A DNA stretch of 63,367 bases, counting the filler, from Hausera hauseri (Eukaryota), in assembly GCA_046269625.1 (NCBI GenBank). It is 13 parts of 13 records of this genome, joined end to end, with 100 filler letters (N's around TTAATTAATTAA, not from the genome) between each part and the next. Parts side by side here need not be neighbours in the genome. Positions count along the whole stretch, not along the records: positions 4,649 to 8,824 come from JBJURY010719435.1; 12 more parts are not named here. One strand, given 5' to 3'. Shown one piece after another: positions 7,753 to 8,200 of the stretch. Position 1 is the first letter of the stretch; every line of letters starts with the position of its first letter. A model generated the notes under the pieces. It saw nothing but the letters and a program-made list of their open reading frames with translations, had not been told where the DNA came from and made no database searches. The position numbers and the translations under genes are program-made.

Positions 7753-8200
7753 ATGTTAGCCAATATCGACTGTCGTGGACATGTTACCAAGTATATTGAC
7801 GCATTACTGCTTAATCAATTGAAACCGAGGTAGTATGTTCACAAATGTCTACAGGACTTTACACGCATCATACTTCAATCAGGAAAGTTTCATATTATGG
7901 GTTGTCGCAAACCAATGACAAGTGATAGTAAAATACCATTCGGAATTGTCATTGACAGAATTCAATTAATAAAGGTAACGAATCAGTCAGGTTTCTCGTC
8001 AATCAATCTGCACAAATTAGCAATGGCTATGAAATGTATTTATGAGTCCGAGCTGTTTCCCGCACAGTGATTAACATTGTTCCGTGTGTCAACGTGTTTC
8101 GCAGTGGAAAAATTATTATACTCCGTATTCCGACAATGGACTACGAAACAACTGTTAATCAAATTAAAAACTATATATATCGTTTAGTAAATCAAAATAA
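7753..8200 (+). pseudogene. TATA-binding-protein-like gene inside the Polinton
   Basis: Hand translation from ATG 7753 gives RIILQSGKFHIMGCRK...INLHKLA..CIYESELFPA, then after a frameshift CVNVFRSGKIIIL; these match the two TBP repeats (LIFSSGKMVCTGAK; YEPELFPG; LIFVSGKVVLTG); one in-frame stop. Confidence 0.75.

What the first reader, a model, noticed from the sequence alone, without database searches (positions are those of the whole stretch)
7753..8200. Polinton encoding its own TBP-like protein, head-to-head with the virion-gene block
Seen: a compact, intronless gene with both TBP repeat signatures, starting within about 100 bp of the divergently oriented ATPase-core-integrase-penton block. 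Established: TBP is not a core Polinton gene, though TBP-like factors occur in large DNA viruses. Inference: the element redirects host Pol II to its own late promoters.
Basis: partly seen in the sequence, partly recalled or inferred. Interest (0 to 1): 0.72.

Follow-up and report, generated by a model that had tools for sequence, protein, structure and literature searches.

The report
Polinton's own miniature TATA-binding protein
A decayed copy of a virus-like jumping element carries a broken gene for a stripped-down TATA-binding protein that its relatives keep intact, and this protein likely switches on the element's particle-building genes through a promoter word of its own.

Summary
Real gene, dead copy. 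Window 7753-~8200 (+) is a pseudogenised member (one in-frame stop, one frame break) of a conserved ~150-aa 'mini-TBP' family. An intact relative folds as TBP (Z 13.3, rmsd 2.7 A over 145 residues). The family keeps the TFIIB-contacting glutamates but lacks N-lobe helix H2. It sits in Polintons (19 of 50 loci show hallmark genes) under purifying selection, so it is no recent retrocopy. The head-to-head layout is incidental: 9 of 13 relatives are co-oriented with the ATPase. The word YATAAAC precedes 31 of 36 virion-module genes but 1 of 35 TBP genes, and is present here ahead of ATPase, core and integrase. Two other Polinton lineages carry different, full-length TBPs and use different words (CATAAGAG; YATAGGA). 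Best reading: an early-expressed viral TBP directs host Pol II to late promoters, like herpesvirus ORF24; binding and transcription are inferred, and no TBP-less Polinton control was available. This scan reported the mini-TBP and a TATA-like word before on other DNA; the three-lineage TBP/word match did not appear in those notes. In print I found only a figure-legend mention of TBP in MELD viruses.

The parts
7753..8064 (+). mini-TBP pseudogene, N-lobe and first half of C-lobe; in-frame stop at 7831-7833
8085..8200 (+). mini-TBP pseudogene, C-terminal piece in another frame (frame break between 8064 and 8085)
7697..7703 (-). TATAAAC word about 40 bp ahead of the ATPase (candidate late promoter)
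7044..7660 (-). A32-type packaging ATPase, broken (three frames), about 60% identical to relatives
7261..7267 (-). TATAAAC inside ATPase coding sequence; may be chance
7055..7061 (-). TATAAAC ahead of the core-protein gene
6521..6801 (-). core-like protein (family F5; name recalled), broken
6493..6499 (-). TATAAAC ahead of the small MG-start ORF and the integrase
6348..6461 (-). 37-codon ORF starting MG with a CC pair, conserved in position in 7 related loci
5747..6383 (-). rve integrase, broken
5662..5668 (-). ATAAACA (one mismatch to the word) ahead of the penton gene
4751..5625 (-). penton-like minor capsid gene (family F10; name recalled, no Pfam hit), broken
4802..4808 (-). TATAAAC in the penton tail, where relatives have it ahead of the next gene
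8220..8227 (+). canonical TATA box (TATAAATA) ahead of the SSB-like gene
8499..8822 (+). gene of family F1/F9, found in 25 of 50 related loci; model resembles T7 gp2.5-type ssDNA-binding proteins (Z 7.2-7.7, middling)

Best explanation
This is a broken copy of a Polinton-encoded miniature TATA-binding protein whose intact relatives are likely made early from an ordinary host-type promoter, then likely bind the word TATAAAC in front of the packaging, core, integrase and capsid genes and likely recruit host TFIIB and RNA polymerase II to them. Shown: the fold (on an intact relative), the conserved residues, the loss of helix H2, Polinton residence, purifying selection, the two promoter classes and the match of TBP clade with promoter word in three lineages. 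Inferred: DNA binding and its specificity, TFIIB contact through the kept glutamates, escape from Mot1/BTAF1, TAF1 and TFIIA through loss of H2, and early/late timing. The window's own copy is predicted to be non-functional.
For: Family: 27 relatives at E<=0.001, best 51% identity; 23 of 27 pass the Pfam TBP cut-off. AlphaFold model of P0002 pLDDT 95.5 matches TBP over its whole length, Z 13.3, rmsd 2.7 A, 145 residues, 21% identity to human TBP (Foldseek). In 97 relatives the two C-lobe acidic residues are E/D 97 of 97 and E 97 of 97, the loop-5 Phe is kept in both lobes 97 of 97, and the inter-lobe stretch is 17-22 aa in 94 of 97 against 32-33 in cellular, archaeal and NCLDV TBP. Ravarani 2020 (PMC7221094, sections read) ties those glutamates to TFIIB and the H2 basic patch to Mot1, TAF1, TFIIA and Brf. 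Context: 19 of 50 loci hold a Polinton hallmark gene. dN/dS 0.13-0.35 in 7 of 8 pairs. Words: TATAAAC in 45 of 136 upstream regions against 3.4 expected, mostly 32-42 nt before the ATG; YATAAAC before 31 of 36 virion-module genes and 1 of 35 TBP genes, canonical TATA 5 of 36 against 16 of 35. In the window 4 sense and 0 antisense sites in 3.9 kb, 0.51 expected. Lineage L077/L068 has CATAAGAG (6 sense, 0 antisense, 0.15 expected in L077) and no TATAAAC; lineage L073/L069 has YATAGGA (7 and 5 sense; 0.97 and 0.84 expected) and no sense TATAAAC; each has its own TBP clade. C at TATA position 7 needs a Hoogsteen pair with cellular TBP because of a leucine (PMC13566119, passage); the matching position is Ile or Val in 78 of 97 relatives (mapping of the paper's numbering to the motif is recalled).
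Against: No binding, transcription or expression data were obtained. No TBP-less Polinton control was available, so the words may be inherited with the lineage and read by another factor; three lineages are only three independent points, and the two extra words were found after the fact in few, related loci (L064 and L077 are one element). Cellular TBP can bind a C7 box (PDB 1qn3), so TATAAAC does not require a viral factor. One of the four intercalating Phe is missing and several DNA-facing residues in both lobes are changed, which could also mean weakened binding. The lineage with G at position 5 has Leu, not a smaller residue, where Val forbids G in cellular TBP, which my structural reading does not explain. 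L047 carries one CATAAGAG and L021 three sense YATAGGA (with three antisense). The window's TBP gene has no canonical TATA upstream. 31 of 50 loci, mostly short contigs, show no hallmark gene. Upstream regions come from related elements, so the Fisher P value overstates independence.
Confidence: 0.68

Rival explanations
1. Host TBP/TFIID reads TATAAAC, and the mini-TBP acts as a decoy or repressor, tying up TFIIB or blocking host and early promoters.
For: TFIIB-contacting glutamates are kept while one intercalating Phe and several DNA-facing residues are changed. Cellular TBP tolerates C at position 7.
Against: DNA-facing positions are changed to new invariant residues (Asn, Arg, Met; 94-97 of 97), which suggests a selected DNA contact, not decay. 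The word changes with the TBP clade, and YATAGGA has G at position 5, which cellular TBP excludes.
Confidence: 0.14
2. The words are read by another factor (another element gene, a host TBP paralogue, or the polymerase of a helper giant virus as in virophages), and the TBP gene only travels with the lineage.
For: Only three lineages; no TBP-less control (searches found no usable Polinton set). Many neighbours have no Pfam family. Helper-virus promoters in virophages are recalled knowledge.
Against: All three words start with YATA and lie at TATA-box distance from the ATG. No other candidate DNA-reading protein is shared by the three lineages among the neighbours examined; the commonest neighbour looks like an ssDNA-binding protein.
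Confidence: 0.11
3. The protein bends or marks DNA for replication or packaging and has no role in transcription.
For: It is linked to an SSB-like gene in 25 of 50 loci and often lies near the ATPase.
Against: The TFIIB-contacting glutamates are nearly invariant. The words sit ahead of genes, in sense orientation. Another lineage pairs its TBP with the coactivator PC4.
Confidence: 0.05
4. A recent host TBP or TRF retrocopy, or a chance match.
For: The window's piece alone is below the Pfam cut-off and finds no PDB sequence.
Against: 51% identity to Polinton mini-TBPs against 19-26% structural identity of the family to cellular TBPs; it falls inside the mini-TBP clade; 1,273 contigs of run X1 lie on 7550-8350, most 80-95% alike (possibly the source sample, so not independent).
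Confidence: 0.01

Closest known systems
Cellular and archaeal TBP (Pfam PF00352; PDB 7egb_P, 1cdw, 2z8u)
   Same: Two-lobe saddle over the whole length (Z 13.3); loop-5 Phe in both lobes; acidic C-lobe stirrup.
   Different: About 148 aa; helix H2 and its basic patch absent; N-lobe stirrup shortened with one intercalating Phe lost; several DNA-facing residues replaced; about 21-26% identity; encoded by a mobile element.
Beta/gammaherpesvirus viral TBP mimics (KSHV ORF24, EBV BcRF1, HCMV UL87; PMC12529657 abstract and introduction read)
   Same: Works-like model: early genes on host-type promoters, late structural genes on a minimal variant TATA word read by a viral TBP with host Pol II.
   Different: ORF24 is a large protein that binds Pol II itself within a six-member viral complex and reads TATT; the Polinton protein is a bare TBP core that keeps the TFIIB surface; the word is TATAAAC.
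TBP-like factors of Nucleocytoviricota and mirusviruses (PMC7221094 sections read; BFVD hits)
   Same: Virus-encoded TBP fold lacking the eukaryotic N-lobe regulatory signature.
   Different: Those mostly pair with a viral TFIIB and have lost the host-TFIIB glutamates (about 40% conserved per that paper); here the glutamates are kept and no TFIIB or RNA polymerase gene was seen among the neighbours scanned.
Polintons/Mavericks/adintoviruses (Starrett 2021, PMC8502044; section 3.4 and passages read)
   Same: A32 ATPase, rve integrase, adenain protease, capsid genes and protein-primed PolB in relatives. The Fig. [quoted passage not shown]
   Different: The paper's text gives TBP no analysis, family or promoter word; I could not see the figure, so which virus carries it is unknown.

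Membership tests
TBP (PF00352) | Two-lobe saddle fold | tested here: met
   Model of intact relative P0002, (Z 13.3, rmsd 2.7 A, 145 aligned)
TBP (PF00352) | Pfam gathering score | tested here: met
   23 of 27 relatives pass; the window's broken piece does not (14.8 bits against 22.9)
TBP (PF00352) | Loop-5 Phe in both lobes | tested here: met
   97 of 97 in each lobe; the window's copy is substituted at the N-lobe one
TBP (PF00352) | Four intercalating Phe | tested here: not met
   Three kept; no conserved Phe at the N-lobe stirrup position (position recalled, alignment there uncertain)
TBP (PF00352) | C-lobe glutamates that contact TFIIB | tested here: met
   E/D 97 of 97 and E 97 of 97; role from PMC7221094
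Eukaryotic TBP | N-lobe helix H2 basic patch (TFIIA, TAF1, Mot1, Brf) | tested here: not met
   Stretch 17-22 aa in 94 of 97 against 32-33; no helix of 4 or more residues there in the model
TBP (PF00352) | Binds and bends a TATA-type box and supports initiation | not testable with these tools
   Only promoter-word statistics
Polinton/Maverick | A32 ATPase and rve integrase | tested here: met
   both broken in the window
Polinton/Maverick | Major and minor capsid genes, adenain protease | tested here: inconclusive
   Penton-like piece in the window; capsid-like (no Pfam hit, name recalled) and Peptidase_C5 genes only in relatives
Polinton/Maverick | Protein-primed PolB on the same element | tested here: inconclusive
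   On the same contig as TBP in L006, L021, L035; in the window only on another contig (59721-63234)
Polinton/Maverick | Terminal inverted repeats and target-site duplication | not testable with these tools
   The element is a 4.2-kb fragment between N-spacers; no genome held
Herpesvirus vTBP (ORF24/UL87/BcRF1) | Large protein with Pol II-binding N-terminal domain; TATT word | tested here: not met
   About 148-aa bare core; word TATAAAC
NCLDV TBP/TFIIB systems | Viral TFIIB partner on the same genome | tested here: inconclusive
   No TFIIB family among 92 and 25 neighbours scanned, but no complete element was in hand

The most novel reading that the evidence does not exclude
Animal Polintons run their own late-gene programme with orthogonal TBP/promoter pairs: one old TBP capture split into at least three clades, each reading a private word (TATAAAC, CATAAGAG, YATAGGA). 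The mini form is a regulator-proof TBP, stripped of the surface that Mot1, TAF1 and TFIIA use, which plugs straight into host TFIIB.
Probability: 0.5. Interest if true: 0.85.

Novelty: new variant of a known kind. Interest (0 to 1): 0.64.

Why it matters
Polintons have no RNA polymerase, and how their capsid genes are switched on is an open question tied to whether they are true viruses. A dedicated TBP with a matching word before the virion genes gives a concrete, testable late-transcription mechanism and argues for a regulated viral cycle. Natural TBPs with altered box specificity and no H2 would also test which parts of TBP are needed for initiation, and could serve as orthogonal promoter tools. 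The copy in this window is itself only a fossil.

Tried and rejected
Word-indexed protein search with the window's piece: no hit. PDB sequence search with it: none. IMG/VR scans with the piece, the family profile and three ATPase queries: no Polinton locus (one search gave an NCLDV TBP used as outgroup and one unusable stretch). The prokaryote-genome scan gave one contaminant-like 3-kb contig without TBP. So no TBP-less Polinton control set could be built. The window's second Polinton fragment has none of the three words in sense, but its TBP status is unknown, so it is not used. No whole genome is held. Sequencing runs: one DNA-type holder, no RNA holder listed. The low cover of 7685-7738 in run X1 is not used as evidence; only the 48 loose ends at 7660 and one contig joining 7660 to 7745 are noted. 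The ESM Atlas gave no usable family for the neighbouring ORF and was not available for the broken TBP piece. Patikoglou 1999 is not held; its results are cited second-hand. My first idea that only the N-lobe diverged was dropped: C-lobe DNA-facing residues changed too. No complex prediction was run: no eukaryotic TFIIB sequence was in hand. Trees hold no animal TBP, TRF2 or TBPL2; eukaryotes are three protist-like sequences, and long branches may group the Polinton clades. Literature searches for a description of this family or word found only the Starrett legend and a passing mention of TATA-binding proteins in mirusvirus-like Cymbomonas elements. One Starrett supplementary file was held and had no TBP hit; figures and bioRxiv supplements could not be seen, and subscription papers and Repbase reports are outside the library. 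Rows left out of counts: of 80 loci, L003-L052 were used for context and motif counts, 165 upstream regions were reduced to 136 by removing near-duplicates, and 97 of the 120 listed proteins (about 140-165 aa) went into alignment A2.

Full report
Setting. The window is a string of short contigs joined by 100-base N-spacers. The finding lies on a 4.2-kb piece, 4649-8824, that holds part of a Polinton. No whole genome is held. An animal host is inferred from the element type and the retrotransposons around it, not shown.

The observation. A TBP-like reading frame starts at ATG 7753, the Met from which relatives align. It has an in-frame stop at 7831-7833 and changes frame between 8064 and 8085. 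Read with X at the stop, the first piece scores only E 0.027 against Pfam TBP, but a full HMMER scan of 1.84 billion representatives returned 27 relatives at E<=0.001, the best 51% identical. 23 of these 27 pass the Pfam TBP cut-off. Both pieces match the family profile (probability 99.8 and 97.3). At least eight invariant or nearly invariant family positions are substituted in this copy. ATPase homology starts at 7660 on the other strand, and ATPase, core, integrase and penton follow, the first three each split over frames. So the anatomy is as described, but this copy is a pseudogene in a decayed element. In the one run that holds the stretch, 1,273 contigs lie on 7550-8350, mostly 80-95% alike, and at many places nearly all depth shows another letter than the window: the window's copy is a drifted member of a family with many sisters that include the TBP gene. 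That run may be the window's own source.

The family. A profile search found 493 proteins at E<=1e-5 among 5,991 candidates; the 120 listed all carry PF00352, and the unlisted tail probably includes other TBPs. An AlphaFold model of the intact relative P0002 (pLDDT 95.5) matches solved TBPs end to end: Z 13.3, rmsd 2.7 A over 145 residues, 21% identity to human TBP, with the next unrelated fold at Z 6.8 (Foldseek). Among 97 relatives the two acidic C-lobe residues are E/D and E in all, and the loop-5 Phe is kept in both lobes in all; the stretch that forms helix H2 is 17-22 residues in 94 of 97 against 32-33 in cellular, archaeal and NCLDV TBP, and the model has no helix of four or more residues there. 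Ravarani 2020 (PMC7221094; passages and sections 7, 11, 12 read) assigns those glutamates to TFIIB binding and the H2 basic patch to TFIIA, TAF1, Brf and Mot1/BTAF1. One intercalating Phe of the N-lobe is missing, and DNA-facing positions in both lobes are replaced by new near-invariant residues (positions mapped through the alignment and recalled motifs). dN/dS between copies is 0.13-0.35 in 7 of 8 ungapped pairs; the eighth pair is 99% identical and gives 1.0, and two pairs are near saturation.

Context in relatives. Of 80 metagenome loci, the 50 best were examined; 19 hold a Polinton hallmark gene and the rest are mostly short. Pfam confirms A32 ATPase, rve integrase, adenain protease and an endonuclease-VII domain in PolB; capsid, penton, core and pX names are recalled. 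Of 13 loci with both genes, 9 have TBP co-oriented ahead of the ATPase and 4 head-to-head, 385-1685 bp apart (some are related copies). Others place TBP after the capsid, protease and exonuclease genes or after the penton. In run X1, 48 contigs leave the window's sequence at 7660, so even the short spacer is not typical of sisters. The head-to-head layout is therefore incidental. The commonest neighbour (25 of 50 loci; 8499-8822 here) models as a T7 gp2.5-like ssDNA-binding fold (Z 7.2-7.7, a middling score, but the top four rows are of this kind).

Promoter words. Earlier notes of this scan pointed to a shared TATA-like word; I tested it blind. TATAAAC occurs in 45 of 136 non-redundant upstream regions against 3.4 expected, mostly 32-42 bases before the ATG. 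YATAAAC precedes 31 of 36 virion-module genes (ATPase, core, integrase, penton, pX, capsid, protease) but 1 of 35 TBP genes, whereas a canonical TATA box precedes 5 of 36 and 16 of 35; TBP genes also often have CCAAT (13 of 35) and TATA plus initiator (8 of 35). In the window all five TATAAAC sites of the contig are on the virion strand, at 7703, 7267, 7061, 6499 and 4808; four in 3.9 kb against 0.51 expected. The window's TBP gene itself lacks a canonical TATA.

Two more lineages. Weaker hits proved to be other Polintons with full two-repeat TBPs. L064/L077/L068 carry TBP, in L064/L077 next to a PC4 coactivator, and have CATAAGAG: 6 sense, 0 antisense, 0.15 expected in L077, with no TATAAAC. 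L066/L069/L073, with a DNA_pol_B_2-type polymerase in L073, have YATAGGA: 7 and 5 sense against 0.97 and 0.84 expected, with no sense TATAAAC. The L077-type TBP has 60 relatives at E<=1e-10. Trees put the window's protein inside the mini-TBP clade and separate all three Polinton clades from cellular, archaeal and NCLDV TBP (97/88; SH-aLRT 90), which fits one old capture but may reflect long branches; no animal TBP or TRF2 was in the trees. Exceptions: one CATAAGAG in L047 and three sense plus three antisense YATAGGA in L021.

Mechanism. The pattern matches a two-stage programme: TBP and SSB genes on host-type promoters, virion genes on a variant box. Cellular TBP needs a Hoogsteen pair for C at position 7 because of a leucine and excludes G at position 5 (PMC13566119 passage; PMC4402545 passages); the leucine position is Ile or Val in 78 of 97 mini-TBPs. 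I infer that mini-TBP binds TATAAAC, recruits host TFIIB and Pol II, and escapes Mot1, TAF1 and TFIIA (0.68). Rivals: a TFIIB decoy or repressor with host TBP reading the word (0.14); another reader, with TBP merely co-inherited (0.11); a replication or packaging role (0.05); a host retrocopy (0.01). Main gaps: no biochemistry, no expression data, no TBP-less control, three independent lineages only, and the G5 word is not explained by the residue at that position.

Known systems and novelty. It works like herpesvirus ORF24/UL87 (PMC12529657, abstract and introduction) but is not a member: it is a bare core that keeps the TFIIB surface and uses another word. It differs from NCLDV TBPs, which mostly pair with a viral TFIIB; none was seen among 92 and 25 neighbours scanned, which is inconclusive, and earlier notes describe another Polinton lineage with a TBP-TFIIB pair (not checked). 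Seven literature searches found TBP only as a label in the Fig. 5 legend of Starrett 2021 (PMC8502044 and its preprint) and in passing for Cymbomonas elements (PMC10675990); PMC7111264 and PMC12220804 passages added nothing. The scan itself has reported the mini-TBP on other genomes; a word search of its notes met no CATAAGAG. Verdict: a new variant of a known kind, interest 0.64; this copy is a fossil of it.

Noticed in passing
L064, L077, L068: Polinton lineage with a full two-repeat TBP, a PC4 coactivator gene beside it (L064/L077) and the word CATAAGAG before virion genes.
   Followed up: partly
L066, L069, L073: Polinton lineage with a third TBP clade and the word YATAGGA; polymerase of the DNA_pol_B_2 type in L073.
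   Followed up: partly
window 6348-6461 (-); L006, L007, L014, L018, L021, L024, L044: Small ORF between core and integrase that starts MG and holds a CC pair, behind TATAAAC; looks like a myristoylated and palmitoylated virion peptide (motifs recalled).
   Followed up: partly
window 8499-8822 (+); families F1/F9: T7 gp2.5-like ssDNA-binding fold next to TBP in 25 of 50 loci.
   Followed up: yes
window 20245-21195 (+), upstream repeats 19300-20100: Fragment of a second, distant Polinton (ATPase about 40% identical); none of the three words in sense; TGACGTCA (CRE-like, recalled) at 19633 and 19832 in a repetitive upstream region.
   Followed up: partly
window 59721-63234 (-): Broken protein-primed PolB, 35-62% identical by segment to the polymerases of TBP-bearing loci L006 and L021; on another contig, linkage unknown.
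   Followed up: no
window 37287-39764 (+) and 50602-53422 (-); also 23604-25466: LTR-retroelement-like pieces with long ORFs that look like viral envelope glycoproteins, plus RING and exonuclease-like ORFs (from the ORF lists; names recalled).
   Followed up: no
L021:225-719, L015:4008-4316, L035/L037/L041/L026: Accessory genes in TBP-bearing Polintons: ubiquitin-conjugating enzyme, dual-specificity phosphatase, and LRR proteins that sit behind YATAAAC.
   Followed up: no
L047, L048, L050, L051, L055-L057, L059: Longer, more divergent TBP-like proteins (140-206 aa) basal to the mini clade; L047, L057 and L059 have a distinct ATPase and still use TATAAAC.
   Followed up: partly
whole window: Short contigs joined by N44-TTAATTAATTAA-N44 spacers, so neighbouring pieces need not be neighbours in the genome.
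   Followed up: yes
window 11915-12969 (-): Fragment of a double-AAA ATPase gene, peroxin- or CDC48-like (recalled).
   Followed up: no
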